A DNA stretch of 64,000 nt from a virus (lineage: Duplodnaviria > Heunggongvirae > Uroviricota > Caudoviricetes): positions 103,173 to 167,172 of the IMG/VR virus record IMGVR_UViG_3300021426_000065; one strand, given 5' to 3'. The stretch's first letter is position 1. Each line of letters begins with the position of its first letter. Of this stretch, positions 11,224 through 61,921 are shown one piece after another. The position numbers and the translations under genes were made by a program. The notes beneath the pieces were generated by a model. It was not told where the DNA came from, ran no database searches, and worked only from the letters and a program-made list of their open reading frames with translations.

Positions 11224-11274
11224 ATTATATAACCTCCGCGGTCAGCCCGTTAGACCTAAAATGGCGGGGCACTT

Positions 11275-11521: not shown

Positions 11522-11550
11522 TTGACTTTTACATAAAATTATGATATAAT
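11522..11550 (+). promoter_or_regulatory. Sigma-70 consensus promoter, family copy.
   Basis: TTGACT 11522-11527, TATAAT 11545-11550, 17-nt spacer. Confidence 0.55.
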
Positions 11551-11569
11551 ATTTATGTAAAAAGGAAAT

Positions 11570-11642
11570 GCCCGCTTAGCTCAGTCGGTAGAGCAATTGG
11601 CTGTTAACCAATGTGTCGGGAGTTCAAGTCTCTCAGCGGGCG
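11570..11642 (+). tRNA. tRNA-Asn, anticodon GUU.
   Basis: Acceptor gcccgct/agcgggc. D arm tagctcagtcggtagagca. Loop ctGTTaa. T loop ttcaagt. Confidence 0.75.
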
Positions 11643-11767
11643 CTCTTTTAGGCGAGTTAACTGCAAAATCTTTATAGGATGATTGAAAATGCTATTTATT
11701 TTCATAGAAAGTTCAAATCTTTCACACTTCCTCGCCTAGTATTTTAAATTAAAATGAGGTAATTAAC

Positions 11768-12307: not shown

Positions 12308-12319
12308 TAGGAGAGTTAG

Positions 12320-12481
12320 ATGATAGTTGAATTAACAAATCATTGGTCTGAAATGAGTGGTCAATACGAAATTGAAGGAGTAGAAGAACATAATGATTAT
12401 TTTCGATTCTACTTCGGCAATGGTAAATGGTCAAAAGAATATAATATACCAACGTATACTTATAGAATTATACAAAAATGA
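12320..12481 (+). CDS. Small hypothetical protein.
   Basis: ORF with Shine-Dalgarno GGAGAG, TAA stop. Confidence 0.35.
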   Translation: MIVELTNHWSEMSGQYEIEGVEEHNDYFRFYFGNGKWSKEYNIPTYTYRIIQK

Positions 12482-12530
12482 ATTGTAATTCTTCTAACAT
12501 TTTTTGTTAAAACTAATTTATAGACCCGTC

Positions 12531-12638
12531 AGCAAATTACTTCTTTTTTTGACTGTTAATCAAAAGGTTATTGGTTCGAGTCCAATCGTATTCTACGGAA
12601 TATGTAGCTCAATTGGCAGAGCATTATAAGCGGGTCTA
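12531..12638 (+). ncRNA. Candidate Y-RNA-like (YrlA-like) RNA with a permuted tRNA-like module. The order is terminal stem, anticodon-like hairpin, T arm, loop-closed acceptor-like stem, D arm, terminal stem.
   Basis: The 9-bp terminal helix pairs tagacccgt (12531-12539) with gcgggtcta (12630-12638). Hairpin tttga-ctgttaa-tcaaa. T arm attgg-ttcgagt-ccaat. A 7-bp stem cgtattc/gaatatg is closed by tacg. D arm gctc-aattggca-gagc carries the GG needed for a T-loop contact. Confidence 0.4.
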
Positions 12639-12646
12639 GTTTTTAT

Positions 12647-12721
12647 CGCAACGTGACGCAGTTGGTTTAGCGTACCATTCTGATAAAATGGAAGTCCCTG
12701 GTCCGAGTCCAGGCGTTGCGA
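12647..12721 (+). tRNA. tRNA-Ile, anticodon GAU.
   Basis: Acceptor cgcaacg/cgttgcg. Anticodon stem ccatt/aatgg, loop ctGATaa. T arm cctgg-tccgagt-ccagg. Confidence 0.65.
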
Positions 12722-12900
12722 TTACCCGAGCGACGGGGCGCCGGTCGTAAAGTTCCCATGGCTACTTGTCCCGACAAGCGGTAGGACCGAAGTTGAGGAT
12801 TGGAACATTGAAAAGCACTGACAATATGCGTAGACCCGCACTATGGGGCGGCGAGCGAAGTGCCTAGCATAGGCACATTAACTGCAATGTAATTAGGGTA
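12722..12900 (+). ncRNA. Unassigned GC-rich structured RNA block. It contains the hairpin gtgcc-tagcata-ggcac and a second copy of the tagacccg motif.
   Basis: No credible ORF. High GC. Hairpins. Confidence 0.25.
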
Positions 12901-13105
12901 ACAGATGAGAATTGTGTTTAATGAGCACGATTCGTTGGATATTATTATATCCACCGACCAGTATGTCGAAATAACTACCATGGGCTGGCTGAGAGGCCCT
13001 GGTCCATCTTGGCATGTGGAAGATATCTACACTCATGAGGCCATCGCTTATCCAGCGATACATAAAAGGGAGATCGTCTGGCCACTCGACCGGTAGTGGC
13101 AATTC

Positions 13106-13176
13106 GCACCATTGGTGTAGCGGTAACATCTTTGCCTTCCAAGCAAATGTGGCCAGTTCAAATCTGGTATGGTGCT
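13106..13176 (+). tRNA. tRNA-Gly, anticodon UCC.
   Basis: Perfect acceptor gcaccat/atggtgc. Anticodon stem tttgc/gcaaa, loop ctTCCaa. T loop ttcaaat. Confidence 0.75.
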
Positions 13177-13180
13177 TTAA

Positions 13181-13296
13181 AGACGCATCAGCAATTATTC
13201 TTTTGCAAAGGGAGCCCGTCAAGTGTTGGTGCAACTCCAACCCACCGCAACATGCGGTGGTCGCTCAATAGTAGAAGCGCGGTTATAAGTGCGTCT
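13181..13296 (+). ncRNA. Second candidate Y-RNA-like element. Terminal pairing gacgca/tgcgtc encloses a T-arm-like hairpin (gttgg-tgcaact-ccaac) and a loop-closed 7-bp stem (ccaccgc-aacat-gcggtgg).
   Basis: Same module order as 12531-12638. No ORF. Sits between tRNA-Gly and tRNA-Leu. Confidence 0.3.
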
Positions 13297-13304
13297 TGTT
13301 TTAT

Positions 13305-14116
13305 GCCGCTGTGGTGGAATGGCAGACACAGCAGACTTATATAATTTGAGCACTTGGATACGAAAGTTCCAATGTGAATGTTCCCTAATTCGGCGAAAGT
13401 CCAAATTGGATTACGCCGAGCTAAATGGGATTACGCTAAAAAAATTTTTTCCAGAGAGTAAATTAAAATGGTTTCCTTGTAATGTAGTCACTCTTATAAT
13501 GAGGTGATGAATATGCGAAATGATATTATTGAACGCAAAGAAGAAATTCTCCAATGGATTAATGAAGGACAATCAAAAGCGAATATGGCGCGCGAACTTA
13601 GGTGTAAGCCTGAAACTTTAAATCGTTATCTTAATCTTTGGAATATAACTTACGATGGAAATCAAAGTGGTAAAGGTACTACAAAAATCAGTAATCGTGG
13701 TATGAATTTAATGGAATATCTTGCTGAAAGTAAAGATATTCAAACTAATAAAATTCGCCGCAAATTACTTGAAGAAGGATATAAAGAATATAAATGTGAA
13801 TGTTGCGGGAATACCGAATGGATGGGTAAGCCCATTCCGCTTGAAGTTCATCATAAAGATGGAAACCGCAATAACAATACATTAGAAAATTTTGAACTTC
13901 TTTGTCCTAATTGCCATGCTTTTACTGATAGTTATCGTGGAAAAAATAGCGCAATCTCTAAATGTGTAGAGACTATATAGGAACCACCTAAGTCATAAGA
14001 TATGGTGAAAACATAGTCCAGACTACAACGCAGTAATGCGGCCATAGTAATATGGAGTAGTAAGAAAATCTGCTGCTCTTATGAGCGTGCCGGTTCAAGT
14101 CCGGCCAGCGGCACCA
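13305..14116 (+). tRNA. tRNA-Leu, anticodon UAA, class II. The gene is interrupted between U34 and A35 by a 726-nt group I intron (13339-14064) that carries an HNH homing endonuclease ORF. Exon 1 is 13305-13338 and exon 2 is 14065-14116, ending in CCA.
   Basis: Exon 1 has acceptor gccgctg, a 3-bp D stem and gcaga-ctt. Exon 2 is aaaa-tctgc, then a variable-arm hairpin gctc-ttat-gagc, T arm gccgg-ttcaagt-ccggc, cagcggc, A73, CCA. Acceptor and anticodon stems pair perfectly across the intron. The intron starts atataatttgagc and ends gtagtaaG. It has P/Q/R/S-like elements (aattcggcg, cgccgagc, ccagagagtaaat, catagtccagac). The 5' end resembles the cyanobacterial tRNA-Leu intron (AAAUAAUUGAGCC, recalled from memory). 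Confidence 0.6.
13504..13998 (+). CDS. HNH homing endonuclease encoded inside the tRNA-Leu intron. The frame reads through TAG at 13978 to TAA 13996-13998.
   Basis: Motif CECCGN...EVHHKDGNRNNNTLENFELLCPNCH. Promoter-like TATAAT and Shine-Dalgarno GAGGTGA upstream. Confidence 0.75.
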
Positions 14117-14119
14117 AAT

Positions 14120-14193
14120 GTCCTCGTAACAGAATTGGCATATGTACCGCGCTCAAAACGCGGGTTCTGTGGGTCCGACTCCCACCGAGGATA
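14120..14193 (+). tRNA. tRNA with anticodon CAA (nominally Leu) but a class I short variable arm.
   Basis: Acceptor gtcctcg/cgaggat. Perfect anticodon stem ccgcg/cgcgg, loop ctCAAaa. T arm gtggg-tccgact-cccac. A73. Confidence 0.55.
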
Positions 14194-14194
14194 C

Positions 14195-14268
14195 GTCCAG
14201 TTGGCGCAATTGGCAGACGCGCTACGTTTAGGCCGTAGTTTTTGAAGGTTCAAATCCTTTACTGGACA
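14195..14268 (+). tRNA. tRNA with anticodon UAG (nominally Leu, reading CUA) but a class I short variable arm.
   Basis: Perfect acceptor gtccagt/actggac. Anticodon stem ctacg/cgtag, loop ttTAGgc. T loop ttcaaat. A73. Confidence 0.55.
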
Positions 14269-14275
14269 TTAGTAT

Positions 14276-14304
14276 TTGACTTTTCTCCAAAATTATTATA
14301 TAAT
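14276..14304 (+). promoter_or_regulatory. Sigma-70 consensus promoter, family copy.
   Basis: TTGACT 14276-14281, TATAAT 14299-14304, 17-nt spacer. Confidence 0.55.
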
Positions 14305-14330
14305 ATATATGTAAGAAAGGGGCGAATGGA

Positions 14331-14510
14331 ATGAAATTACTTTTTCTTAATAAAGAAGAAAAGAAAGCATTGATTAAATTATTAGTTCCTTTGGCTACTT
14401 CTTCAAAAGGTAATTATGAATTAACAACTATTTTAGAAAAATTGGATTGGAAAGCATATGAATATGCTTTTAACCATCCTAAAGAAGATAAGTATTTGAC
14501 TTTTCCTTAA
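14331..14510 (+). CDS. Small hypothetical protein of 59 aa. The next promoter copy is embedded in its 3' end.
   Basis: Shine-Dalgarno AAAGGGG then ATG. The ORF ends ...KYLTFP, overlapping TTGACTTTTCC. Confidence 0.35.
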   Translation: MKLLFLNKEEKKALIKLLVPLATSSKGNYELTTILEKLDWKAYEYAFNHPKEDKYLTFP

Positions 14511-14537
14511 AATTATGTTATAATAAATATATAATGA

Positions 14538-14806
14538 AGCCCGCTAGCATAATGGTTAATGCACCGGTCTCTAGTCTAAATTGGAGCCTTATATAGTAAT
14601 ATATAAGTGAAAACGCCGCTAATTCGGTGAAGGCTTAACTGCTAATACCGAGCAAGGATTTTTAATCTATGTGTAGAGACTTTATACGGCGCATCCTTAT
14701 AGGATGAAGATAAAGTCCGGACCACGATGCGAAAGCAACGCGTGTGAAGAAAACCGTAACACCTCTGAAGTGGGTTATCTCCGTTCGATCCGGAGGCGGG
14801 CCGCCA
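14538..14806 (+). tRNA. Candidate amber-suppressor tRNA, anticodon CUA, class II, G73, CCA encoded. The gene is split in the anticodon loop after U35 by a 177-nt group I-like intron (14573-14749). Exon 1 is 14538-14572 and exon 2 is 14750-14806.
   Basis: Exon 1 is agcccgc-ta-gcat-aatggtta-atgc-a-ccggt-ctCT. Exon 2 is Aaa-accgt, a 21-nt variable arm (acct/gggt stem), T arm ctccg-ttcgatc-cggag, gcgggcc, G, CCA. Six of seven acceptor pairs form. The spliced loop ctCTAaa matches the A37-A38 pattern of most tRNAs in the island. The intron starts agtctaaattggagcc with a GGAG internal guide for the ..CUCU exon end. It ends gtgtgaaG, the same ..aaG/aaaa junction as the tRNA-Leu intron, and carries P/Q/R/S-like segments (aattcgg, ccgagcaagg, gtagagact, aagataaagtccggacc). 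Confidence 0.5.
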
Positions 14807-14874
14807 TCTTTAAGCGACCATTACAGCAATATTTTATTTATAACTGAAAATTATAAAATATGGTCGCGTTTTTT

Positions 14875-14947
14875 CGGGGTATAGCGCAGTTGGTAGCGCG
14901 CCAGTTTTGGGAACTGGATGCCGCAAGTTCGAGCCTTGCTACTCCGA
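14875..14947 (+). tRNA. tRNA-Pro, anticodon UGG.
   Basis: Acceptor cggggta/tactccg with one G-U pair. Anticodon stem ccagt/actgg, loop ttTGGga. T loop ttcgagc. Confidence 0.65.
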
Positions 14948-14970
14948 CTTATAAAAAGAAAGGAATCAAT

Positions 14971-15336
14971 ATGACAGCGCAAGAAGTAGTTTGGTTTATT
15001 AATCACAAATACGGTGAACAGGCGTATATTGTAGAAACAAACGACCAAATCTTACTATTTACGAAAGAATCCAAATGGATAATCAATAAAAATGATTATT
15101 CTAAGTTTCATTGCTATACTTTATTTCATTCTAATAATACGCAAGGAAATGGATTCCATGTACAAATGCGCGGCAATCATATTGATTTTTTAGTTTATCA
15201 AGCTATCATGCATGATAATAAAGAAATTTTTTCTAATCGTGAAACCTGGGATAATTTTCAAAATGCTTGGGAATTATTTCTTCTTGGACGAAAAATTGAA
15301 GCAGAAATTAATGCGTGGGAATGGATGACAAAATAA
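14971..15336 (+). CDS. Hypothetical protein of about 121 aa.
   Basis: Shine-Dalgarno AAAGGAA then ATG 14971. Track ORF 14860.. starts inside tRNA-Pro, so the downstream start is preferred. Confidence 0.45.
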   Translation: MTAQEVVWFINHKYGEQAYIVETNDQILLFTKESKWIINKNDYSKFHCYTLFHSNNTQGNGFHVQMRGNHIDFLVYQAIMHDNKEIFSNRETWDNFQNAWELFLLGRKIEAEINAWEWMTK

Positions 15337-15355
15337 GATTGGAGCATTAGAATAT

Positions 15356-15562
15356 ATGAATGATGAAAAATATATAGATTCTATTTGTATCAATGGTTAG
15401 AAATATAAAATTAAAGCGTCATTAATTGAAGCTTATCCTATTAACTGTAAAAATTGTGGCGCGTTGTTTGAATTAAAATATGGGTCTGGACGATGTGATT
15501 ATTGCGGCACGTATTATACTACTGAGTTTAAAATAGTAGAAAAACCATTCAAGGAGAATTAA
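15356..15562 (+). CDS. Zinc-ribbon protein (CxxC...CxxC) with one in-frame TAG.
   Basis: ATG 15356. The frame is open through TAG to TAA. Confidence 0.4.
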
Positions 15563-15581
15563 CCGCGGAAGGTAAAATGAG

Positions 15582-15902
15582 ATGATTGAAGGAGTAGTTG
15601 TTTTATCAGAATGGACAAGCATGTCCGCACTGGGTTGTCTTATGCTAACTATCGGTTTAACTTTTTTTATTCTATTCGCTTGGATTGCAATGTTCAATAA
15701 AGGAGTTATTAGTAACAATTGGTTCTGTGTATTTGTTATTGGGTCTATTATTGGAATTGGCTTATTCGTCGGTTCATTTTTCATGCCCAAGGACCATGGG
15801 TACAAAATAACTTTAACTGATGATGCTAACTTTTCAGAAATAGTAAAGCATTATGAAATTATTAGTACCGATAACTTGATATTAAAAGTAAGAGAGCGGT
15901 GA
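15582..15902 (+). CDS. Small membrane protein with two transmembrane helices.
   Basis: Track ORF with hydrophobic stretches, TGA stop. Confidence 0.45.
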   Translation: MIEGVVVLSEWTSMSALGCLMLTIGLTFFILFAWIAMFNKGVISNNWFCVFVIGSIIGIGLFVGSFFMPKDHGYKITLTDDANFSEIVKHYEIISTDNLILKVRER

Positions 15903-15908
15903 AGTGGG

Positions 15909-16112
15909 ATGAATGAAACAGGCTTGAAAAAGACTCGAAAGTATTATCGTCTATGCGGAATGTGCGGAAAAAGGCATGAACAGAAACAAATGAAAAGAAC
16001 GACACATAGCAGAAATGGATGGCTTTGTAAAGATTGCTATGAATCAGATGAATATTTAGATTTTAATACCAATACCGGAGACCCAATTGGATGGGATTCT
16101 AATGAGTGGTAA
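15909..16112 (+). CDS. C4 zinc-finger protein.
   Basis: CGMCGK...CKDCY. Confidence 0.45.
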   Translation: MNETGLKKTRKYYRLCGMCGKRHEQKQMKRTTHSRNGWLCKDCYESDEYLDFNTNTGDPIGWDSNEW

Positions 16113-16151
16113 AAGAATAAAATGAAATTATATACTTCCTATTGGGCATAG

Positions 16152-16574
16152 GTGCGCAATTTTCCAAAAAATCTTATCGGTCTAAATACTACTGTTTTTC
16201 CGCCGAAGTGGCGCCCGCTTGGACAAGACGGCCGCGGCATATGGGTAATTGATTGCCCACCATTAAAGCCTGGCGCGGAATGCGATGGACTATGTAATGG
16301 GAAATGCGCCCCTAAACATCCACAAAATTGTTCTTTTCTACAAGTATATTCAAATCAATTAGATAAAATTGATTTTAAACTTTTCATGTCTAAATTATTT
16401 AGCTTACATGAACGTATCGCATACGATAATGATATAAAAGACTATGATTTCGCATTTATTGTATTTGAAAAATATGACAACCCTTGTAGTGAGCGATGGC
16501 CAATACAAGAGTGGTTTAGAAAAAATGGAGCGACAATAGAAGAATGGACCAAAGAGAATATAATAAACAACTAA
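16152..16574 (+). CDS. Cys-rich hypothetical protein.
   Basis: Track ORF, TAA stop. Confidence 0.45.
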   Translation: MRNFPKNLIGLNTTVFPPKWRPLGQDGRGIWVIDCPPLKPGAECDGLCNGKCAPKHPQNCSFLQVYSNQLDKIDFKLFMSKLFSLHERIAYDNDIKDYDFAFIVFEKYDNPCSERWPIQEWFRKNGATIEEWTKENIINN

Positions 16575-16597
16575 TTGAAAAATATCCATTTCTAATG

Positions 16598-16992
16598 CCA
16601 TATAATATATGGACTGGCGAGCCAATTGAAGATTATGATTATGAATATATATGGCTTGATGATATGCCAGACGGCTGGCGCAACGCATTTGGCTTACAAA
16701 TGTGCGAAGAATTAAAGCAGGCCCTAAACAAGCAGCCATAGGTTTTTGCAGATACCTTTAAAATTATTCAAATTAAAGAAAAGTTTGGCGGTCTACGCTT
16801 CTATACTAATTGGACAACACCAGAGATAAATGAAGTAATTAGTAAATATGAAAATATGAGTTATTCAATTTGTATTCGTTGTGGTGCGCCCGCGAAGTGG
16901 ATTACAAAAGGATGGATTTCTCCTTTCTGTGATAAGTGTAAGCCCGATGAAAATTGCGTAGAAATTGAAAAGTTCTACGAAGAAAATACTTG
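16598..16992 (+). CDS. Hypothetical protein with one in-frame TAG (at 16739) and C-terminal CxxC pairs.
   Basis: Track ORF 16544..16741 continues in frame past TAG to TGA 16990-16992. The start is placed at the first ATG beyond the overlap with the upstream gene. Confidence 0.4.
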
Positions 16993-17048
16993 ACTTATAG
17001 TAAAAATTATAGTATAATTATTATACAAAGAGGAAAGGAGCCAAGAAA

Positions 17049-17405
17049 ATGCGTAATTACAGTATGAAGTCTAAAAATCGTAGGAATCATCAGCGGTGGC
17101 TAAATCAGTATTGTAAAATGGTAAATAAGTATGTCGCGGAAGATCCACTCTGGCTCGGTCGCTTTGTAATGGAACAAGTCAGAACTAGAATGGAATGGTT
17201 TGAGGACGGTAGTGGCGGCCTCATGTATTGCGAGCTTCGTTTCCGCGATAAGAAAACCGGAAAGACTAAAATCTGGGATACCGATTGCCTTGAACTAGAA
17301 TATAAGTCTGGCTTTAAAATGAATGATTTTATTGTTAGTGATTGTGCTGTTTGGGAAAATGAACGCCCATATGAAGAAGTGAGGGATTATAGAAATGTCA
17401 AGTGA
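17049..17405 (+). CDS. Hypothetical protein.
   Basis: Promoter copy at 16990, Shine-Dalgarno GGAAAGGAG, TGA stop. Confidence 0.5.
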   Translation: MRNYSMKSKNRRNHQRWLNQYCKMVNKYVAEDPLWLGRFVMEQVRTRMEWFEDGSGGLMYCELRFRDKKTGKTKIWDTDCLELEYKSGFKMNDFIVSDCAVWENERPYEEVRDYRNVK

Positions 17406-17598
17406 AGAAAATAACGGACAGATTGAGTTTACTTTTTGGCCCGGCGGCGATAATCCGCATGAGCGACGAACAGAACTAAGCTTTGATATTCCAAGCGATG
17501 TCGGTATTGATGAACTATGTGATTGCTTTACTTCGTTCCTTGTCGCACTTGGGTATCATCCAAATACTATTAATAAGTATATTCCCGGGAGCTATTAA
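17395..17598 (+). CDS. Hypothetical protein.
   Basis: ORF overlapping the upstream stop, TAA stop. Confidence 0.4.
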   Translation: MSSEENNGQIEFTFWPGGDNPHERRTELSFDIPSDVGIDELCDCFTSFLVALGYHPNTINKYIPGSY

Positions 17599-17607
17599 GC
17601 TCTCTAT

Positions 17608-17679
17608 GGGACATTAGTTCAACGGTTAGAACGGTGGTCTTATAAACCATTAACGATAGTCCGACTCTATCATGTCCTA
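17608..17679 (+). tRNA. tRNA-Ile, anticodon UAU.
   Basis: Acceptor gggacat/atgtcct. Anticodon stem gtggt/accat, loop ctTATaa. T arm gatag-tccgact-ctatc. Confidence 0.6.
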
Positions 17680-17850
17680 CCACAATAGCGGCTAATCTTT
17701 GCGAAGATTAGGAAGGATGAAAACCACTTCCGCCAAACTATTGGCAGCAGCAAACACCTATGCGTAGGTAAAGGCAAATAGTCGCGACGTTGGTAATTAG
17801 ACCCGAAGCAAGAGGCCGAGTAGTATCCGCAACTCTTCCGCCGCGATTGT
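17680..17850 (+). ncRNA. Unassigned structured RNA block containing the hairpins ctaatctt-tgcg-aagattag and ggaag...cttcc, plus a third copy of the tagacccg motif.
   Basis: No ORF. GC-rich hairpins between two tRNAs. Confidence 0.25.
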
Positions 17851-17932
17851 GCCCGTTTAACTCAACGGACAGAGTATCTGACTTCTAATCAGAAAATATA
17901 GGTTCAATTCCTATAACGGGTATTTAAGTAGA
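17851..17932 (+). tRNA. tRNA-Arg, anticodon UCU.
   Basis: Acceptor gcccgtt/aacgggt. Anticodon stem tctga/tcaga, loop ctTCTaa. T loop ttcaatt. Confidence 0.7.
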
Positions 17933-17989
17933 AGGCGCGGCAGTACAGCGCCCCGAGAGGACAAAACCACACAGTATTCTACTTTTTAT

Positions 17990-18060
17990 GCGCCTGTAAC
18001 ATAGTGGTAGTGTTGTAGACTTTTAATCTATAAGCGCGGTTTCGATTACCGCCAGGCGCA
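17990..18060 (+). tRNA. tRNA-Lys, anticodon UUU.
   Basis: Perfect acceptor gcgcctg/caggcgc. Loop ctTTTaa. T arm gcggt-ttcgatt-accgc. Confidence 0.65.
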
Positions 18061-18138
18061 TTATGAGGTAGCGTTAGAATAGCTAACTAACGAGATAAAG
18101 ATGCTCCTACATCGGCTCAATTTTATATAATCATAGGA

Positions 18139-18801
18139 GTGATTAATATGATAGGATATATTTATAAAATTACTAATGATATAAATAATAAGGTTTATAT
18201 TGGAAAAACTTTAAAATCTATAACAAAGCGATTTGCAGAGCATATTCATGAAAGTACTCGTAAAAGAAGCGAGAAACGACCATTGTACATGGCAATGAAT
18301 AAATATGGAATTGAACATTTTTTCATAGAATTGATAGAAGAAGTTGATTCTTCCATATTAGAAGAACGTGAAATTTATTGGATTCAACAATACAACAGTT
18401 ATCATTATGGTTATAATGCTACTTATGGTGGAGATGGCAAAATATTATATGATGATAATATAAGACAAGAAATGATAAATGAATATAAAGATGGACAATT
18501 AATAATAGAAATTGCTACTAAATACAATTGTGATGTAAGTATTGTTCATAGTGCAATAGTCTCCGCGGGATTAGACGTAAATAGCAATAAAAATAAACGT
18601 CTTATGATTGGCATAAGTGCTTATAAAGATGGAAAATTAATTCAATCATTTGAATCACATAAACTTGCTGGACAATGGCTGTATACTAATGGATATACAC
18701 AGTCTCAAAATTGGGATAATATATCAGCAACCCTTGGCCGTGCAAGAGATAATCCTAATAGAACTGCTTATGGATTTATATGGAAAACAATAGGGGTATA
18801 A
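18139..18801 (+). CDS. GIY-YIG homing endonuclease, free-standing within the tRNA island.
   Basis: Motif GYIYKITNDINNKVYIGKT, then ...Y.G.K, C-terminal DNA-binding region. -10 TATAAT and Shine-Dalgarno upstream. Confidence 0.75.
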   Translation: MINMIGYIYKITNDINNKVYIGKTLKSITKRFAEHIHESTRKRSEKRPLYMAMNKYGIEHFFIELIEEVDSSILEEREIYWIQQYNSYHYGYNATYGGDGKILYDDNIRQEMINEYKDGQLIIEIATKYNCDVSIVHSAIVSAGLDVNSNKNKRLMIGISAYKDGKLIQSFESHKLAGQWLYTNGYTQSQNWDNISATLGRARDNPNRTAYGFIWKTIGV

Positions 18802-18867
18802 GATAATTAGCAGTCGGGGAATCTCCAAAATTCTCAGTTCCTAGGCAGAATAGGATACCCCTGCCAA

Positions 18868-18941
18868 GCGCGTCCAATTCTCGTCGGCCGGGAGCGGGCC
18901 TGCAAAGCCCCTGTTAGTTGGTTCAACTCCAACTGGACGCT
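18868..18941 (+). tRNA. tRNA-Cys, anticodon GCA.
   Basis: Acceptor gcgtcca/tggacgc. Loop ctGCAaa. T arm gttgg-ttcaact-ccaac. Confidence 0.6.
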
Positions 18942-18961
18942 TCAACAAAGGAGAAATAATT

Positions 18962-39730: not shown

Positions 39731-42124
39731 ATGGCTAAATCTAAAAAAAAATCAATATCAAATACTTGGGCCCCTACTTTTCCTAGTAGATATATATTTT
39801 TTCAATCTCTTAAAAATGCAAAAGGTTCACTCGGGGGATTAAGTATTCATATGTCAAATGTATTTGGCTCTTTATCAATTAAACAAGAAGAAGAACAAAA
39901 ACGACAATAGTCCTTACAATATATTTCTAATTATATTACAATGCTGACTAAATTAGCAGAAAAGGAACAAAGTCAAGAAAAAAAATATTTACAATCAATT
40001 GCTAGAAATGGATTTGATGAAAATAAATTTAAAAATACTGATGGTAGTTTTAACTATTTAGCTTTTATTAAAGAATTAAATTTGGCTAATAGTAATATTG
40101 AATTTTTACGTAAAACAATTAAAACAAATATTAATAATATACAACAAATTGAATAGGAAATGAAAAAATTTAGTCAACAAGAAGAACGGACATATAAACG
40201 ACTGAAGGTTAATGCTAAAAATAAAGATGATACTATTGATATTGTCACTAATGAAGATGAATATATAAAACATGGCTATGTAGTAGCATATCAAAAATAT
40301 ATTGAAGAAATGTAGAAAAGAGTTAATAGCAGTTATGCAAAAACATTAAATGAATAGTTTACTGCACTAGTAAATAAAGTTATATCTAATATAGCATATA
40401 ATAAAAAAATTTTAACATAGATTACTAATGCCTGCACTAATTTAGGTATTCCTGAATCAGCCTTATTAACTACTATTCAGAACCTATGTGTAGAAGCAGT
40501 AAGATAGGAAGCTTAGAATGTCAAATGGAATTTAAAACAAATTAATGTTAAACAATTAATAAATAATCTTAATGGTACTGCGCAATTAGATTAGTTAATA
40601 GAACGCGCAGCGAATAGTATGGCCAATAAAGTTATGGATTCATAGAATAGTGTAATTCAGCAAATTTTAGATAATAGCTTAAAAGACGGTCGAGGCATTG
40701 CTAAACGTTTAGAAGAGACTCCAGAATCCTTAGATGAGTTACTCAATACAATCGGAGCGAATCAAACAGAAAAAAAATAGATTAAAAAACTTTTTTCTAA
40801 CGATCAAAAAGCCCTAAAAAATAAAAATAATAAAAAAACGAATGGCGCGATTGAACGAGCAGAATTAAAATTAACTTAGACTCGTCATCAATTGACAAAA
40901 GAGATAAATAGAATTATTAAAAAAATAGATAATAAAACATATTCTAAAAAAGAAGAGCGTGAAATAGCAGTTAATAAAATTATTTCTACATATATTTCAT
41001 CTTCAACTCCGGCTACAGTATAGCAGGCATTAATTAATTCACTTTCTTCAAGACTCAAGGTAACAAATTTATCAGATAATTCCGCGGCAGAAATACTAAG
41101 TAGCCCTGAATTTCATAATTTTCTACAAAATCATATTACAGATATATTTATTCCAGGAAAATCTATTCAATATAAACATGATTTAGCTTTTGGAGTATCT
41201 TTATAGCCACTAGAAGATACATAGTTATTAAAATATTTTACTAATATGCCATATTGGATAGAAACATACGCAGAAGAACGAGGAAGACTATTCTTAGAAG
41301 CTTATAAAGCAACTGCTGGTGGAGCAACTAGTGTATCACTCGCAGCAGAAGCCTATCGTAATGTTTTGTCAGCAAGTTTAGCGTCAAAAAAAGCTATGTT
41401 GGTCCAAGCAGATGAGAATTTACACGATAAAATTGAAGAATATTTTTCTGGACAATTAGATGGCGCAATTTCTGTTAAAGAATACAAATTCTATGATAAT
41501 AATCAAGGATTTCACGCGGGTTCATTGGGTGGAAGCGGAAAAGTAGTAGATGCTATTCCGTAGATTGCTTAGATGTTAGAATTAGGCGGAATCACATTAC
41601 CAGATACTGAATTAATAATTGATGCCTTATTAAACTGTTTTAGTGAATCTTTAATTGGCGATACTGGCCTTTTAGATGATTTAAAAAGTTTATTAATAGG
41701 TGGAGCAGCAATGATGCTTTTTGATGATGGCTTTGCCAACTGTGAAAATTTTATTAATAGATTAGTAAGTGAATTTCAACTTTCTAACGCTAAAGAACTT
41801 CCTACCGGTGGTAGTGTTCATATATTATATTTAAATAATATTTATATGCCACAATCTTATATATTATTCAACGTTATTGATCAGTTAAAAAAAATTCAGG
41901 CCGATTTAAATGGAGATGTTTTTGAGCCCTCCGAAGCCCAAAATAGTTTATACTTAAACAATCCAATGTCGGAAAGCATGTTAAAAGAAGTAGAAAATTT
42001 ACCCACTCCTGCAGAGCGATGGAATGCAATTTCTAGTTATGCACAAGAAAATGTTACAATTCATTTTCTTTTTATGGCAGGAATGCTCGATATTCTCCAA
42101 AGTTTAGAAAATTTAGGTATATAA
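39731..42124 (+). CDS. Protein of about 797 aa that is extremely TAG-rich (about 27 TAG codons), probably a virion or internal protein.
   Basis: Track ORFs 39941.., 41246.. and 41573.. share the frame of ATG 39731. Only TAG interrupts the frame. TAA stop and terminator. Confidence 0.5.
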
Positions 42125-58945: not shown

Positions 58946-59836
58946 ATGAAAACACTAATGGATCAATCAACAAATAAGATAACAATTGTAGGCAAGCTTC
59001 TAGATGCAACTTTTAATAGCGGTAAGACCAAGACTGGTGTGCCATATGAGCGCGCAAATATCACAGTCCGTGTGGCTCAGCATTATGGCGACCATGATGA
59101 AGTAAGTGAAATCCCTGTAAGCATGTTTGCTTCTCAGTTCACGCAGAAGGGTACTCTTAATCCCGCGTGGCAGAGCATTTAGGATCTTCGTAAAATGAAG
59201 ACTGCTCAGGATCATGGCATTGACGGCGCGGATACAGTTCGTATTACTGGTGCGAATATTCGTGAAAATAACTTTGTATCCAAGAGTGGCCAGCTAATTA
59301 CCGGTTGGCAGATTAACACTTCTTTCGTTAATGCTGGCAATACTCCCGAAGTCGCATCTTTTATTCTAGATATTTTCATCATGGATATGACTGATGAACT
59401 TGACCGCGATGGCGATCCTACTGGTCGTTTAATTATCAAGGGCGCGCTAGTTCAGTATGGTGGTAAGCTTGATGTTCTACAATTTATTGTAGAAAATCCT
59501 GACGCGGTTGATTATATCAGCAGCCACTGGAATCCAAATGATACAAATACTGTAAAGGGTCGTATTCGTGTAACTTCTACCGAAGAGAAGTCTGCACCTT
59601 CTACAAGCTCTTGGGGCGAAGATGTTCCTGACACCACAACCCGTATGGTGCGTGAACTTATTATCACAAAGGGTGATGATGAAGGCAAAGAAGAAGACTT
59701 CGCGTATGACCCAGTTGAAATTAAGAAAGGGTTTAATGCCCGTAAGGCTGAAATTGAACAGCTACAAATTGATGCAAAGAACAAGAGCGCTGCTCCTGCT
59801 CCTGCCACAACCTCTAATAAGTATACCTGGGAGTAA
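58946..59836 (+). CDS. Putative single-stranded DNA-binding protein with one in-frame TAG.
   Basis: OB-fold-like N terminus KITIVGKL..., acidic C-terminal tail. Track ORFs 58946..59182 and 59195..59836 share a frame across TAG 59180. Confidence 0.45.
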
Positions 59837-59867
59837 TTCTCCCAGGTCATTTTAGGAGGGATGACAT

Positions 59868-61921
59868 ATGGCAAATATTGATATTTTTAATTTAGAGCCA
59901 AGTAAGATTAGCCGCGACCTAAAAGGTAAATTTTTATTGATTTACGGTCAGCCTAAATAATTTGGGCCTTATATAAGCGATTATATAAGATAATTACTGG
60001 AAAAATCTGGAAGCCTGAAATGGCAATCAGAGCGGAAGTTATTCCTTAAAAAGAATAACACGCACAACGATTAGGATAATTAAACATCCAAGGAGGGTTC
60101 TATCTATGGATATTACCGTTATTAAGCAATTATATGAAAACGACAAAAAAAGTTTGGCGTAGTTAAGTAAAGACACAGGAATTAGTGCTTATAGATTAAA
60201 AAAAATTCTACTAGCAGAAGGAATTCACATTAGAAGTAAAGAAGAGCAAAACAAGTATTCTCCATAGAATCAAAGAAAATATAAAATTTATGATGAGTTT
60301 TTTGATAATTTAAATCCAACTAATGTCTATCTTATTGGATTTCTTGCCGCTGATGGTAGTATTCAAAAAGACGGCGGAATAAAAATTGGTTTATCTACTA
60401 TTGATAAATCATTTTTAGAACAAATAAAATTACTACTTAATAGTAATTATCCAATTAGAGATTATATTACTAAAGATGGATTTTCTATTTCAGAATTTAT
60501 TTTTAGAAGTGAAAAAATAAAACAAAAATTAAGTGAATTTGGTATTGTAAATAATAAGACAAAAACCTTTCAGTTTCCTTATAATTTACCAAAAGAATTT
60601 TATATTGACTTTATTCGCGGTTATTTTGATGGGGATGGAACATTTTGTACGGCTGGGCAATATTGTCGAGCTTCATTATGTGGATACAATAAACAATTTT
60701 TACAGGACGTTGTTGATATTCTTGAAAATCAATACAATATTCCAAAAGTAAAAATACAAAAAGATTCACGCGGCAATACTTATTATTTCCAATATTCTCA
60801 AACTTCTGCAAAAAAATTATATGAACTTTTTTATCAAAATCATCCAAAACTTTACTTGACTCGTAAATATGAAAAATGCTTACAACTCTTTGGTGAAATA
60901 ACATCCCACGAGCCAGTAACTTCTCAAGAAGAAGAAAAGATAATCTGACCTTATACGAATAATAAGTATAAGAATTATCGGATAAAAAGCCGATAAGATA
61001 ACATAAGTGAAGACTGGCAAGTCAACATTTGGTTCTTAGTTGCCTCGCGCATTATTCCTTAACTTTGAATAGGGTACAAATGCATTAGCCGGTATTCGCG
61101 GTGTGCCAATTCTTCGTTGGACGGACTTTAAGAAGGTATTAAGTCAGCTACGTAAACCATAGGCACGCGAAATGTATGATAGCATCGTTGTTGATACTGC
61201 TTCTATTGCTTGGCAGCTTTGTGAAGATTATATCAAGCAACGCGAATCAGTCGATTCTATTAGAGACATTCCTTGGGGCCAAGGATGGGGAATGGTTAAG
61301 AATGAGTTCTCTGAATGCTGGCGTGAGATTACCCTACTAGGATTTGGTATCCTATTTATTGCACACAGTAAAGAAAAGCCAACCGAAATGCGAGATGAAG
61401 AGGGTAATCCGATTACTGCGGTCGCGCCAGACCTACCAAATAATGCTTATACAATTATAAATAGTATTGTAGACATTATTGGTTATCTACAAGTTCAAAT
61501 GAACGCGGACGGAACAACAGAGCGTTATTTGTATACACGTTCTACTCCAACGATTTTCGCGGGTTCAAGGTATTAGTATCTAGCACCTAAAATCGCATTT
61601 GGTTATAAGGAGCTTGTAGATGCAATTGGTGAAGCAATTGACCAAGCGGTTACAAAAGACGGAGCAGAAGTAACTGACCATACTGAAATCGCTCAGGTTA
61701 AGGCGCGTCCATTCCAAGAAGTTATGGAAGAAGCTAAGCAAATCTGGATTCATTATTTGGATATGGCTACAAATGATGAAGAAAAAGACCAGCACGCAAA
61801 TATTATGCGAGATATTATTAAACGAGTATTTGGTTCAGAGGATTTCAAACTCAGCCAGGCTGTACCTTCTCAAACTGACCTCGTTGAATTGTTTATAGAT
61901 GAAATGAAAGATTTAATGTAA
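59868..61921 (+). CDS. AAA_24 (Sak4-like) recombination ATPase gene split by a group I intron. Exon 1 is 59868-59954 and exon 2 is 61010-61921. The intron (59955-61009) carries a LAGLIDADG ORF. Exon 2 contains 4 in-frame TAG codons.
   Basis: Exon 1 ends FLLIYGQP. Exon 2 begins KTGKSTFGSQLPRALFLNFEQG, rebuilding the Walker A GQPKTGKS only after splicing. The intron ends in G. A GGGC internal guide lies 9 nt inside the intron, opposite the exon end GCCU. Walker B IVVDTASI follows downstream. Confidence 0.5.
60106..60948 (+). CDS. Intron-encoded LAGLIDADG homing endonuclease with two motifs and 2 in-frame TAG codons.
   Basis: LIGFLAADGS and IRGYFDGDGT. Shine-Dalgarno AAGGAGGG then ATG 60106. 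Confidence 0.7.

What the first reader, a model, noticed from the sequence alone, without database searches (positions are those of the whole stretch)
59868..61921. Group I intron with a TAG-recoded LAGLIDADG ORF splitting the Walker A motif of an AAA_24 (Sak4-like) ATPase gene
The exon 1 reading frame stops at TAA right after ..LLIYGQP(K). 1.05 kb downstream the frame resumes as (K)TGKSTFGSQLP..LNFEQG, so the P-loop GQPKTGKS exists only after splicing. The intron ends in G, and a GGGC guide lies 9 nt into the intron opposite GCCU. The internal LAGLIDADG ORF uses TAG twice as a sense codon, so the homing endonuclease has adopted the phage code.
Basis: partly seen in the sequence, partly recalled or inferred. 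Interest (0 to 1): 0.7.

Follow-up and report, generated by a model that had tools for sequence, protein, structure and literature searches.

The report
Mobile self-splicing intron in phage ATPase
A phage DNA-repair/replication ATPase gene is cut in two inside its ATP-binding loop by a 1,055-base self-splicing group I intron that carries its own homing-endonuclease gene, and that gene, like its host phage, uses TAG as a glutamine codon. It is a clean example of a phenomenon already described in other recoded phages.

Summary

- **Gene structure.** Exon 1 is 59868-59954, the intron is 59955-61009, and exon 2 is 61010-61921. Joined, they give a 332-aa AAA_24/Sak4-like protein whose Walker A (GQPKTGKS) spans the junction.
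- **Intronless allele.** Contigs with flanks 98-99% identical to the window encode exactly this protein from an uninterrupted gene.
- **Ribozyme.** Rfam RF00028 does not hit the window. The intron nevertheless belongs to a family found at more than 120 IMG/VR phage loci. Two covariance models built without the window hit its 5' half (E=4e-13) and its 3' half (E=1.5e-15). All helices pair and covary, including the P3/P7 pseudoknot.
- **Endonuclease.** The LAGLIDADG ORF (60106-60948) sits in the loop of an extra helix between P7 and P3'. Its last ~46 nt run through the ribozyme core. Its two TAG codons align with CAA/CAG (Gln) in orthologous endonucleases at the same site in related phages.
- **Homing signature.** Synonymous differences from the intronless allele cluster next to the insertion site, as a co-conversion tract would.
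- **What is missing.** No CUA suppressor tRNA lies in this window, and splicing and cleavage are untested.
- **Novelty.** Recoded intron endonucleases were already reported (Borges 2021; Yutin 2021), so this is a new member of a known kind.

The parts
59868..59954 (+). Exon 1 of the AAA_24/Sak4-like ATPase gene (29 codons, MANIDIF...LLIYGQP). An AGGAGGG ribosome-binding site lies at 59854-59860. The last base, U59954, is the 5' splice site.
   Evidence: Its translation matches the first 29 residues of the intronless allele's product exactly. The last 22 nt are identical in three intron-containing alleles and differ at synonymous sites in four intronless alleles.
59955..61009 (+). Group I intron, 1,055 nt, ending in omega-G at 61009.
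   Evidence: Covariance models R1 and R2 hit its two halves. Pair counts support the structure. The intronless allele L124 defines both boundaries. Orthologous introns sit at the same site in L129-L134.
59951..59967 (+). P1. Exon GCCU (59951-59954) plus intron AAA (59955-59957) pair with UUUGGGC (59961-59967). The internal guide GGGC is 59964-59967, and U59954 pairs with G59964 as a wobble at the splice site.
   Evidence: Direct reading. It is the minimum-free-energy fold of 59946-59993. GGGC and GCCU are conserved in L129 and L132. The intronless alleles L124 and L138 have A instead of U at the last exon-1 position.
59968..59989 (+). P2. A 9-bp hairpin, CUUAUAUAA/UUAUAUAAG, with a GCGA (GNRA) tetraloop.
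   Evidence: The loop is GUGA in L132, so it stays GNRA.
59994..60000 (+). P3 5' strand, UUACUGG. It pairs with 60913-60919.
   Evidence: helix 1: 6 of 7 pairs change on both sides across the family. L132 has UUGCUGG/CCAGCAG, a compensatory change.
60007..60063 (+). P4-P6 domain. P4 is 60007-60010/60027-60030. P5 is 60013-60015/60022-60024 with loop UGAAAU. P6 is 60032-60034/60061-60063. P6a is 60038-60044/60053-60059.
   Evidence: R1 alignment with no non-canonical pair. Pair counts, helices 2-4. About 80% blastn identity to Clostridium phage CS266P1-P4.
60069..60073 (+). P7 5' strand, GAUUA. It pairs with UAAUC at 60941-60945.
   Evidence: helix 5. The family consensus is GCAUA/UAUGC, L132 has GACUA/UAGUC (the same letters as the RF00028 consensus), and the window carries two compensatory pairs.
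60074..60906 (+). Extra helix between P7 and P3' (P7.1-like), GGAU 60074-60077 paired with AUCC 60903-60906. Its loop holds the endonuclease ORF.
   Evidence: helix 6: 4 of 5 pairs change on both sides across the family. The hairpin is compact in ORF-less family members.
60106..60948 (+). LAGLIDADG homing-endonuclease ORF, 280 codons. The ribosome-binding site AAGGAGGG is at 60090-60097. Sense TAG codons are at 60160-60162 (codon 19) and 60265-60267 (codon 54). Motif 1 (LIGFLAADGS) is 60328-60357 and motif 2 (FIRGYFDGDGT) is 60610-60642. The stop TGA is 60946-60948.
60903..60948 (+). Dual-use stretch. The last ~15 codons of the ORF (..SHEPVTSQEEEKII*) are also the 3' strand of P7.1, the CACGAG junction, P3' (60913-60919), P8 (60920-60924/60930-60934), J8/7 (60935-60940) and the 3' strand of P7 (60941-60945).
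   Evidence: R2 alignment. The C-terminal tail SHEPxTSQxExKIx is kept in endonuclease homologues down to about 53% identity.
60950..61009 (+). P9 (60950-60956/60966-60972), P9.1 (60975-60981/60990-60996, loop AUAAAAAG), and the 3' tail GAUAACAUAAGUG with omega-G at 61009.
   Evidence: helices 8-10. About 82% identity to phiCD211.
61010..61921 (+). Exon 2 of the ATPase gene (KTGKSTFGS... to TAA at 61919-61921). It has four sense TAG codons: 61037-61039, 61070-61072, 61160-61162 and 61574-61576.
   Evidence: Codon 39 is TAG in the window, L124 and L138, and CAG/CAA in L129, L132, L137 and L139.

Best explanation
The region is one gene for an AAA_24 (Sak4-like) P-loop ATPase of the phage replication/recombination module. 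A mobile group I intron interrupts it in phase 0, between the Pro29 and Lys30 codons of Walker A.

**Splicing (inferred).** After transcription the ribozyme folds into P1-P2, a P3/P7 pseudoknot, P4-P6, an extra helix between P7 and P3', P8, P9 and P9.1. Exogenous guanosine attacks after U59954, which is held by the GGGC guide. The freed exon-1 3'-OH then attacks after omega-G61009. This joins ..GGU CAG CCU|AAG ACU GGC.. and restores GQPKTGKS.

**Homing (inferred).** The loop of the extra helix carries a two-motif LAGLIDADG homing endonuclease with its own ribosome-binding site. It would cut intronless alleles at the P-loop-coding site. Repair from the intron-bearing copy then copies in the intron together with about 22-50 nt of upstream exon.

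**Genetic code.** The phage lineage reads TAG as glutamine. The ATPase exons carry 4 TAG codons and the endonuclease ORF carries 2. The two in the ORF most likely arose by synonymous CAG/CAA-to-TAG drift while the intron resided in this recoded lineage. The endonuclease can therefore only be made when TAG suppression is active.

**Shown here:** the anatomy, the exact junction, conservation and covariation of the ribozyme, presence/absence polymorphism of the intron, TAG-Gln codon equivalence, and the clustered synonymous differences in the flanking exon.

**Inferred, not shown:** catalysis, endonuclease activity and target, the decoding agent, and the timing of expression.
For: **Junction**
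- The spliced translation is 100% identical over 332 aa to P0001.
- P0001 is encoded by an uninterrupted 999-nt gene in L124-L128. The flanks of L124 are 98.3-99.1% identical to the window.
- 1,726 homologues were found; the 120 best listed are contiguous proteins of 331-335 aa.

**Ribozyme**
- R1 hits 59990-60084 at 61.8 bits (E=4.4e-13). R2 hits 60895-61011 at 89.4 bits (E=1.5e-15). Both matches are full length with no non-canonical pair, and both models were built without the window sequence.
- On the 15-sequence alignment, 96.3% of cells pair against 72% in shuffles and 32-42% when partners are slid. 38 of 52 pairs change on both sides. All 49 window cells with letters on both sides form standard pairs.
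- Three orthologous introns at the same site show compensatory changes in P3, P7 and P8, and keep a GNRA loop on P2.
- RF00028 passes its gathering score on family member L010.
- P1 and P2 are the minimum-free-energy fold of the intron's 5' end.

**Endonuclease**
- Pfam LAGLIDADG_3 and PHROG 4645 both match.
- 238 homologues were found. Orthologues with 86% and 69% identity lie in the same intron at the same site.
- Against L129, 67 codons differ synonymously and 38 non-synonymously.

**TAG = Gln**
- Endonuclease codons 19 and 54 are CAG/CAA in orthologues. Q54 lies in SPQNQRKY, where 15 of 17 aligned homologues (down to 38% identity) have Q.
- ATPase codon 28 is TAG in L124 and CAG in the window. 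Codon 39 alternates between TAG and CAG/CAA among alleles.
- A tail-protein match (phrog_5302) spans three in-frame TAGs.

**Mobility**
- 12 of the 13 differences between the window's exons and L124 cluster from 48 nt upstream to 3 nt downstream of the insertion site, and all 13 are synonymous if TAG=Gln.
- All three intron-containing alleles share an identical 22 nt upstream of the intron. Four intronless alleles each differ there.
Against: - RF00028 gives no hit on the window, even at E<=10.
- P1 has only 4 exon-guide base pairs, and no convincing P10 was found.
- No tRNA with a CUA anticodon lies in the 64-kb window, although it holds a cluster of about 18 tRNA genes. The decoding agent is therefore unidentified.
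- At distant standard-code homologues, the ATPase TAG positions are R, K, Q/K and D, so those positions alone do not fix the amino acid.
- The identical upstream exon stretch could reflect selection by the intron (P1 context, or immunity to cleavage) rather than co-conversion.
- No RNA or protein data exist.
Confidence: 0.9

Rival explanations
1. The intron is real, but its endonuclease gene is a decaying pseudogene. On this view the two TAGs are genuine nonsense mutations and no full-length enzyme is made. This is the late stage of the homing cycle, after the intron has become fixed.
For: - Orthologous endonucleases in L129 and L132 have no TAG, so TAG is not needed for function.
- No CUA suppressor tRNA lies in the window.
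- No in-frame start follows the second TAG before motif 1, so a stop there would be disabling.
Against: - Both TAGs fall exactly on Gln codons of the orthologues. One is the Q of SPQNQRKY, where 15 of 17 aligned homologues have Q.
- The 280-codon ORF has no TAA, TGA or frameshift, and synonymous differences outnumber non-synonymous ones, 67 to 38.
- The host ATPase exons and neighbouring essential genes of the same lineage use TAG in frame.
- An identical protein was called in other assemblies (P0121).
- Intron presence/absence polymorphism at 98-99% flank identity argues that mobility is recent.
Confidence: 0.08
2. The TAG codons early in the endonuclease ORF are a selected timing device. Before the phage's TAG suppression switches on, ribosomes stop at codon 19 or 54. 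That delays endonuclease production and keeps ribosomes out of the ribozyme core that the ORF's 3' end overlaps, so splicing proceeds undisturbed. This refines the best explanation rather than replacing it.
For: - The ORF's last ~46 nt are P7.1', P3', P8, J8/7 and P7', so translation to the end must unfold the core.
- Both TAGs lie in the first fifth of the ORF.
- Borges et al. proposed exactly this delay for a TGA-recoded intron endonuclease in Agate phages.
- From my own knowledge, delayed I-TevI translation is needed for efficient td intron splicing in T4 (Gibb and Edgell 2010). I did not check this paper here.
Against: - The TAGs are absent from orthologues in L129 and L132, which have the same ORF-core overlap.
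- The host ATPase exons also carry 4 TAGs, so host gene and endonuclease would be gated together.
- 2 TAG out of 19 Gln codons (11%) is not enriched over the window-wide share, 78 of 559 or 14%.
Confidence: 0.15
3. The region is not a self-splicing intron. A free-standing endonuclease gene cassette disrupted the ATPase gene, leaving it dead or made as two polypeptides.
For: - The stock Rfam model is silent on the window.
- Free-standing GIY-YIG endonuclease genes do occur nearby in relatives.
Against: - Strong structure-aware hits to both intron halves.
- Covariation that includes the pseudoknot.
- A U at the 5' splice site, an omega-G, and an in-phase junction that reproduces the intronless protein exactly.
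- The element is kept at the same site in phages only 72-76% identical, with the exons intact and under constraint.
Confidence: 0.02

Closest known systems
Recoded group I intron endonuclease of TGA-recoded 'Agate' phages (Borges et al., bioRxiv 10.1101/2021.08.26.457843), and the intron ORFs with TGA codons in PolB of Zeta crAss-like phages (Yutin et al. 2021, PMC7886860)
   Same: A self-splicing intron sits in a replication or early gene of a stop-codon-recoded gut phage. Its intron-encoded ORF contains in-frame reassigned stop codons, so the enzyme depends on suppression.
   Different: - Here the reassigned codon is TAG, evidently read as Gln, rather than TGA (Trp in Agate phages; the amino acid is not stated for the Zeta crAss-like case).
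- The enzyme is a LAGLIDADG type, and the host gene is an AAA_24/Sak4-like ATPase split in Walker A.
- TAG is not enriched in the ORF (2 of 19 Gln codons), and orthologues lack it. The Agate endonuclease family was reported as preferentially recoded.
- The phage lineage differs: the closest annotated homologues of the ATPase, at 30-38% identity, are in Enterococcus and Bacillus SPbeta-like phages, with the same neighbouring gene order.
Classical phage group I introns with homing endonucleases (T4 td, nrdB and sunY; SPO1/SP82 DNA polymerase with I-HmuI; Staphylococcus phage Twort). This comparison rests on my own knowledge.
   Same: - A group I ribozyme in a nucleotide-metabolism or replication gene, inserted at a catalytic motif.
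- An extra helix between P7 and P3', as in subgroup IA.
- The endonuclease ORF lies in a peripheral loop.
- Flanking exon sequence is co-converted during homing.
   Different: - The endonuclease is LAGLIDADG, whereas those phages carry GIY-YIG or HNH enzymes.
- The ORF sits in the P7.1-like loop and runs through P3', P8 and P7'.
- P7 is GAUUA/UAAUC, whereas the RF00028 consensus is GACUA/UAGUC.
- The ORF contains TAG sense codons.
- Subgroup assignment was not tested here.
Unannotated intron-like element in Clostridioides phage phiCD211 / phiCDIF1296T (L001 ~2330-2590), and the family of more than 120 IMG/VR loci that carry GGATAAAAAGCCNNTANGATAACA
   Same: The same core architecture and sequence motifs: J3/4-P4-P5 (AAAAUC..GAAG.CUGA.AU), J6/7-P7 (AACGCAUAG), CCACGAG before P3', J8/7-P7' (GAAAAUGUAUGCUGA), P9, and P9.1 with loop AUAAAAAG.
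   Different: - Most members are compact at roughly 230-260 nt, or carry ORFs elsewhere. They sit in other genes, such as those for tail and terminase proteins.
- The window's copy has the LAGLIDADG ORF in the P7.1 loop and two compensatory changes in P7.
Rfam RF00028 (Intron_gpI)
   Same: The helix order and the J8/7-P7 motif are the same. The window reads AAAAGAUAAUCUGA where the model consensus reads gAAGAUAUAGUCuaa. Family member L010 scores 51 bits against a gathering score of 50.
   Different: The window gives no hit even at E<=10. Only 1 of 20 scanned family loci had its family copy detected at the gathering score.

Membership tests
Group I intron | The 5' splice site follows a U that forms a U-G wobble with an internal guide sequence (P1). 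| tested here: met
   GCCU (59951-59954) pairs with GGGC (59964-59967). P1 is the minimum-free-energy fold and is conserved in orthologues. The intronless alleles L124 and L138 have A at this position.
Group I intron | A terminal guanosine (omega-G) at the 3' splice site, with exon ligation that restores the reading frame. | tested here: met
   G61009. The junction 59954|61010 gives a protein identical to that of the intronless gene in L124.
Group I intron | A conserved core: the P3/P7 pseudoknot, the P4-P6 domain, P8 and P9, supported by covariation. | tested here: met
   R1 and R2 hits at E=4.4e-13 and E=1.5e-15. 96.3% of cells pair, and 38 of 52 pairs change on both sides. Compensatory changes occur among the three orthologues.
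Group I intron | A match to Rfam RF00028 at or above the gathering score. | tested here: not met
   No hit on the window at the gathering score or at E<=10. It is met by the compact relative L010 at 51 bits. Two likely reasons for the miss are the 0.83-kb ORF inside the core and the variant P7. This criterion is a detection tool, not a biological definition.
Group I intron | A guanosine-binding pocket in P7 (a conserved G-C pair with its neighbouring geometry). | tested here: inconclusive
   The first P7 pair, G60069-C60945, is invariant in 15 of 15 sequences. Bulge and base-triple geometry cannot be judged from sequence.
Group I intron | Guanosine-dependent self-splicing. | not testable with these tools
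   This needs an in vitro transcript with GTP and Mg2+, or RNA from infected cells.
LAGLIDADG homing endonuclease (two-motif, monomeric type) | Two LAGLIDADG motifs, each with its acidic residue. | tested here: met
   LIGFLAADGS (aa 75-84) and FIRGYFDGDGT (aa 169-179). Pfam LAGLIDADG_3 gives two stretches at E=8.9e-17. D83/G84 and D175-G178 are invariant in 18 homologues.
LAGLIDADG homing endonuclease (two-motif, monomeric type) | Site-specific cleavage of the intronless allele, followed by homing. | not testable with these tools
   Only indirect evidence exists: intron presence/absence polymorphism at 98-99% flank identity, and clustered synonymous exon differences next to the site.
AAA_24 / Sak4-like ATPase | A Pfam AAA_24 match above the curated cut-off, with an intact Walker A (GxxxxGK[ST]). 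| tested here: met
   164.4 bits against a cut-off of 27, on residues 22-217. PHROG 124, Sak4-like, at E=1.5e-55. GQPKTGKS exists only after the exons are joined.
AAA_24 / Sak4-like ATPase | Single-strand annealing or recombination activity. | not testable with these tools
   The name comes from the annotation of homologues with 37.5% identity. Function was not tested.
TAG-to-Gln recoded phage (genetic code 15) | In-frame TAG codons in conserved genes, at positions where relatives have Gln codons. | tested here: met
   TAG alternates with CAG/CAA at ATPase codons 28 and 39 and at endonuclease codons 19 and 54. The tail-protein ORF 5312-7300 has 4 in-frame TAGs, three of them inside its PHROG match, and the ORF 1374-4646, which carries a short tail-fibre match, has 14.
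TAG-to-Gln recoded phage (genetic code 15) | A phage-encoded suppressor tRNA with a CUA anticodon. | tested here: not met
   None was found among about 18 tRNA genes in the window, even with relaxed ARAGORN thresholds. The window is only part of a genome that is probably 140-190 kb, so this is absence from the window, not from the phage.

The most novel reading that the evidence does not exclude
The two TAG codons at codons 19 and 54 of the endonuclease ORF may act as a code-switch gate. Until TAG suppression starts, ribosomes terminate early and never reach the last ~46 nt of the ORF, which are the ribozyme's P7.1', P3', P8 and P7' strands. Splicing of the ATPase mRNA would then be protected early in infection, with homing enzyme made only late. 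That would make genetic-code switching a regulator of the trade-off between splicing and homing.
Probability: 0.12. Interest if true: 0.6.

Novelty: new member of a known kind. Interest (0 to 1): 0.35.

Why it matters
**Annotation.** Standard pipelines would report a 30-aa micro-ORF, ORF fragments in place of the endonuclease gene, and an N-terminally truncated ATPase lacking half its P-loop. Three things compound here: a split gene, an alternative genetic code, and an intron the stock Rfam model misses.

**Biology.**
- The locus gives direct codon-level evidence for TAG=Gln, because TAG alternates with CAG/CAA between near-identical alleles.
- It offers a natural intron-plus/intron-minus pair with a visible co-conversion-like tract.
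- It shows a selfish element's gene drifting into its host's altered genetic code. That would limit expression of the endonuclease, and so homing, in relatives that use the standard code.

**Wider family.** The intron family it belongs to (more than 120 IMG/VR loci) has a non-consensus P7. RF00028 at its gathering score detected the family copy in only 1 of 20 scanned loci. A dedicated covariance model would improve phage annotation.

The concept itself, recoded stop codons inside intron-encoded endonucleases of recoded phages, is already published.

Tried and rejected
- **Rfam on the window.** RF00028 gave nothing at the gathering score or at E<=10 on 59800-61150; only chance-level hits to unrelated families appeared. 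I bypassed this by building family-specific half models.
- **Manual core assignments.** My first attempts placed P3' at AAUUAU (60973-60978) and P7 at UUAGG/UCUGA. I abandoned both when family alignments showed P3' = CCAGUAA inside the ORF's end and P7 = GAUUA/UAAUC.
- **A second intron at 7.27-8.05 kb.** R1 hit 7273-7338 (E=0.6) and R2 hit 7991-8047 (E=0.96), on the same strand and in the right order. I rejected this after reading the sequence. The region holds separate genes, a promoter-like TTGACT/TATAAT, and a terminator-like hairpin that mimics P9.1.
- **An extra tRNA as the suppressor.** The Rfam tRNA at 9837-9909, which default ARAGORN missed, has a CAU anticodon and is not a suppressor.
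- **Distant ATPase homologues to identify the TAG amino acid.** This was uninformative: the positions are R, K, Q/K and D.
- **Nearest solved structure of the endonuclease.** Only a marginal match appeared (2dch, E=0.003).
- **P10.** No convincing pairing was found beyond 2-3 weak A-U or G-U pairs.
- **RF00028 on the phiCD211 locus.** It detects only the neighbouring, already annotated intron (41.7 bits), not the element related to the window's intron.
Full report
**1. The observation**

- An ORF starts at ATG 59868, behind an AGGAGGG ribosome-binding site. It reads MANIDIFNLEPSKISRDLKGKFLLIYGQPK and stops at TAA 59958-59960.
- From 61010 the sequence reads KTGKSTFGS-TAG-LPRALFLNFE-TAG-G... 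and runs to TAA at 61919-61921.
- Joining 59954 to 61010 is in phase (87 + 912 nt). It gives a 332-aa protein in which the Walker A motif G27-Q-P-K-T-G-K-S34 straddles the junction.
- The intervening 1,055 nt end in G61009. GGGC lies at 59964-59967, 9 nt into the intron, opposite exon GCCU at 59951-59954.
- An internal ORF, 60106-60948 (280 codons), follows an AAGGAGGG ribosome-binding site. It has two LAGLIDADG motifs and in-frame TAG at 60160 and 60265.
- No ATG, GTG or TTG lies in frame between the second TAG and the first motif. The enzyme can therefore only be made if TAG is read through.
- Pfam gives AAA_24 at 164 bits (E=3.8e-48, residues 22-217) for the spliced protein, and LAGLIDADG_3 at E=8.9e-17 for the internal ORF. 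PHROGs gives Sak4-like ssDNA annealing protein (phrog_124, E=1.5e-55) and endonuclease (phrog_4645).

**2. Is it an intron? The intronless allele**

- A search with the spliced translation found 1,726 homologues. The 120 best listed are all contiguous proteins of 331-335 aa.
- The best hit, P0001, is 100% identical over all 332 residues.
- Its gene (L124-L128) is an uninterrupted 999-nt ORF. The flanks of L124 are 98.3-99.1% identical to the window.
- The window's two exons, joined at 59954|61010, differ from that gene at 13 nucleotides. All 13 are synonymous if TAG is read as Gln.
- This fixes both intron boundaries to the base.

**3. Is it group I?**

Rfam RF00028 is silent on the window, both at the gathering score and at E<=10 on 59800-61150. 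Other evidence identified the ribozyme.

- *Leads from blastn.* A search against phage genomes gave two short matches. The intron's 3' end is ~82% identical to an unannotated stretch of phiCD211/phiCDIF1296T, next to an annotated Intron_gpI. The P4-P6 part is ~80% identical to Clostridium phages CS266P1-P4.
Aligning these loci revealed a family of mostly compact introns (roughly 230-260 nt). Their order of elements is J3/4-P4-P5-P6, AACGCAUAG (J6/7-P7), a hairpin, CCACGAG, P3', P8, GAAAAUGUAUGCUGA (J8/7-P7'), P9, P9.1 with loop AUAAAAAG, then GAUAACAnnnnG.
- *Link to RF00028.* The model passes its gathering score on one member (L010, 51 bits) and aligns the family's P7, P3', P8 and P9 to the canonical positions. 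In 20 scanned loci, only that one family copy was detected.
- *Predicted helices.* RNAalifold on 22 members predicts P5, P6/P6a, P7, the extra hairpin, P8, P9 and P9.1. 31 of its 43 pairs show compensatory changes.
- *Independent models.* I built two half models that exclude the window's sequence. R1 covers P3 to the 5' strand of P7 (14 sequences). R2 covers the 3' strand of P7.1 to omega-G (19 sequences).
- *Hits in the window.* R1 hits 59990-60084 at 61.8 bits (E=4.4e-13). R2 hits 60895-61011 at 89.4 bits (E=1.5e-15). Both matches are full length with no non-canonical pair.
- *Pair counts.* I aligned the window's ORF-deleted intron with 14 relatives. A structure that includes the P3/P7 pseudoknot pairs 96.3% of cells. 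Column shuffles give 72% (0 of 500 reach the observed value), and slid partners give 32-42%. 38 of 52 pairs change on both sides, and every window cell with letters on both sides forms a standard pair.
- *The window's P7.* It is GAUUA/UAAUC against the family's GCAUA/UAUGC, which amounts to two compensatory pairs.
- *P1 and P2.* P1 (GCCUAAA/UUUGGGC) and P2 (9 bp with a GCGA tetraloop) are the minimum-free-energy fold of the 5' end.

**4. Orthologous introns**

- Endonuclease homologues with 86% identity (P0133) and 69% identity (P0150) lie between the same 30/31-codon exon 1 and the AAA_24 exon 2. They occur on phage contigs of up to 139 and 179 kb whose local DNA is only 76% and 72% identical to the window.
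- Their introns show compensatory changes:
  - P3: UUACUGG/CCAGUAA against UUGCUGG/CCAGCAG.
  - P7: GAUUA/UAAUC against GACUA/UAGUC.
  - P8: CUUCU/AGAAG against CCUCU/AGAGG.
  - The P2 loop remains GNRA (GCGA against GUGA).
  - P9.1 differs in sequence but is isostructural.

**5. Anatomy worth noting**

- The ORF sits in the loop of the extra helix between P7 and P3' (GGAU 60074-60077 with AUCC 60903-60906). From my own knowledge this position corresponds to P7.1/P7.2 of subgroup IA introns. I did not test subgroup membership.
- The ORF does not end in the loop. Its last ~15 codons (SHEPVTSQEEEKII) are also the 3' strand of P7.1, the CACGAG junction, P3', P8, J8/7 and the 3' strand of P7. The TGA stop (60946-60948) follows P7' directly.
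- The same C-terminal tail is kept in endonuclease homologues down to about 53% identity. This arrangement is therefore old within the family.

**6. TAG as a sense codon**

- *Distribution in the window.* With TAG read as sense, several long plus-strand ORFs carry many in-frame TAGs:
  - 1374-4646 has 14; it also has a short tail-fibre match (residues 679-733).
  - 5312-7300 has 4. Its tail-protein match (phrog_5302) covers residues 99-644 and so spans three of them.
  - 39731-42124 has 16, 78-1361 has 7, and 20490-21146 has 7.
  - Many other genes have none.
- *Codon-level evidence for Gln.*
  - ATPase codon 28 is TAG in the intronless L124 and CAG in the window.
  - ATPase codon 39 is TAG in the window, L124 and L138, and CAG/CAA in L129, L132, L137 and L139.
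  - Endonuclease codons 19 and 54 are TAG in the window and CAG/CAA in L129, L132 and L134.
  - Q54 lies in SPQNQRKY, where 15 of the 17 aligned homologues (which reach down to 38% identity) have Q.
- *Selection on the endonuclease ORF.* Against L129, 67 codons differ synonymously and 38 non-synonymously.
- *Relatives.* In L129 and L132 none of the 7-8 replication-module genes has an in-frame TAG. In the window's lineage YorF, AAA_24 and DnaB do.
- *Codon share.* TAG makes up 2 of 19 Gln codons in the endonuclease, 4 of 18 in the ATPase, and 78 of 559 window-wide.
- *Reading.* The simplest account is synonymous CAG/CAA-to-TAG drift in a lineage where TAG means Gln.
- *Caveat.* No tRNA with a CUA anticodon is in the window, despite a cluster of about 18 tRNA genes at 8.4-20.4 kb. 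The window is only part of the genome.

**7. Mobility**

- Of the 13 differences between the window's exons and L124, 12 lie between 48 nt upstream and 3 nt downstream of the insertion site.
- The three intron-containing alleles (window, L129, L132) are otherwise 72-76% identical. They share an identical 22 nt, TTTATTGATTTACGGTCAGCCT, immediately before the intron.
- Four intronless alleles each differ there at synonymous sites. For example, Tyr is TAC in every intron-containing allele and TAT in every intronless one. The last exon base is A in L124 and L138, and U in every intron-containing allele.
- This is the pattern expected from co-conversion of flanking exon during homing. Selection for P1 pairing or for resistance to cleavage cannot be separated from it with these data.

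**8. Comparison with what is known**

- Borges et al. (bioRxiv 10.1101/2021.08.26.457843) describe a group I intron endonuclease in an early gene of TGA-recoded Agate phages. It preferentially uses the reassigned codon. They propose that in-frame stops delay endonuclease production.
- Yutin et al. (PMC7886860) show PolB introns in Zeta crAss-like phages whose ORFs contain TGA codons that must be suppressed.
- The present locus is the same kind of thing with different parts: TAG to Gln, a LAGLIDADG enzyme, an AAA_24 P-loop target, and a phage whose closest annotated ATPase homologues, at 30-38% identity, are in Enterococcus and Bacillus SPbeta-like phages with the same neighbouring gene order.
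- I file it as a new member of a known kind.

**9. Rivals**

- *Pseudogenised endonuclease.* This is unlikely. Both TAGs fall on Gln positions, no other lesion exists, the ORF shows purifying selection, and the host genes use TAG in frame.
- *Selected timing gate.* This is possible but unsupported. Orthologues lack the TAGs, TAG is not enriched in the ORF, and the host exons carry TAG too.
- *Non-intron cassette.* This is excluded by sections 2-4.

**10. Verdict**

Interest is modest at 0.35. The case is unusually well documented, and it exposes a large intron family that the stock Rfam model mostly misses. The underlying concept is already published.

Noticed in passing
L004-L123 (IMG/VR loci); the window's member is 59955-61009: More than 120 viral loci carry the 3' motif GGATAAAAAGCCNNTANGATAACA of a group I intron family with a non-consensus P7 (GCAUA/UAUGC). 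In 20 scanned loci, RF00028 at its gathering score detected the family copy only once (L010). A dedicated model would find many unannotated phage introns.
   Followed up: partly
L001 (phiCD211, LN681537.2) ~2330-2590 and 2606-2870: Two group I intron-like elements lie in tandem upstream of the annotated tape-measure gene. One is an unannotated member of the family above. About 30 nt downstream lies the annotated Intron_gpI (RF00028, 41.7 bits). This suggests twin introns around a mini-exon and a mis-annotated gene start.
   Followed up: no
window 8452-20431: A cluster of 17 tRNA genes (ARAGORN), plus a tRNA with a CAU anticodon at 9837-9912. None has a CUA anticodon, even at relaxed thresholds, although the phage uses TAG as a sense codon.
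   Followed up: partly
window 78-7300, 20490-21146, 39731-42124: TAG-rich ORFs carry 4 to 16 in-frame TAGs each. They include a tail protein (5312-7300, phrog_5302) and a large ORF with a short tail-fibre match (1374-4646). Most ORFs at 21-39 kb and 43-58 kb have no TAG. This is the module-specific use of the reassigned codon described for recoded phages.
   Followed up: partly
window 60903-60948; homologues P0122-P0170: The endonuclease's C-terminal tail (SHEPxTSQxExKIx) is encoded by the ribozyme core (CCACGAG, P3', P8, J8/7, P7') and is conserved in homologues down to about 53% identity. The stretch is constrained at both the protein and the RNA level.
   Followed up: partly
L132 497-1240, L133 416-1243, L134 68-934: Relatives carry a free-standing GIY-YIG endonuclease gene (SegE/I-HmuI-NUMOD-like) upstream of the MarR-like and YorF genes, where the window's lineage has none. 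The replication module appears to be a hot spot for selfish endonucleases.
   Followed up: no
L003 (Clostridium phage CS266P3, OP172777.1) 1014-2863: A stretch about 80% identical to the window's P4-P6 lies between two I-HmuI-like HNH endonuclease genes, just after a truncated terminase large-subunit CDS. It overlaps a 'hypothetical protein' annotation. The terminase gene is probably split by unannotated introns.
   Followed up: no
window 7273-7338 and 7991-8047: The two half models gave weak hits here (E=0.6 and E=0.96) on the same strand and in the right order. Reading the sequence shows separate genes, a promoter-like site and a terminator-like hairpin. I judged these to be chance matches.
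   Followed up: yes
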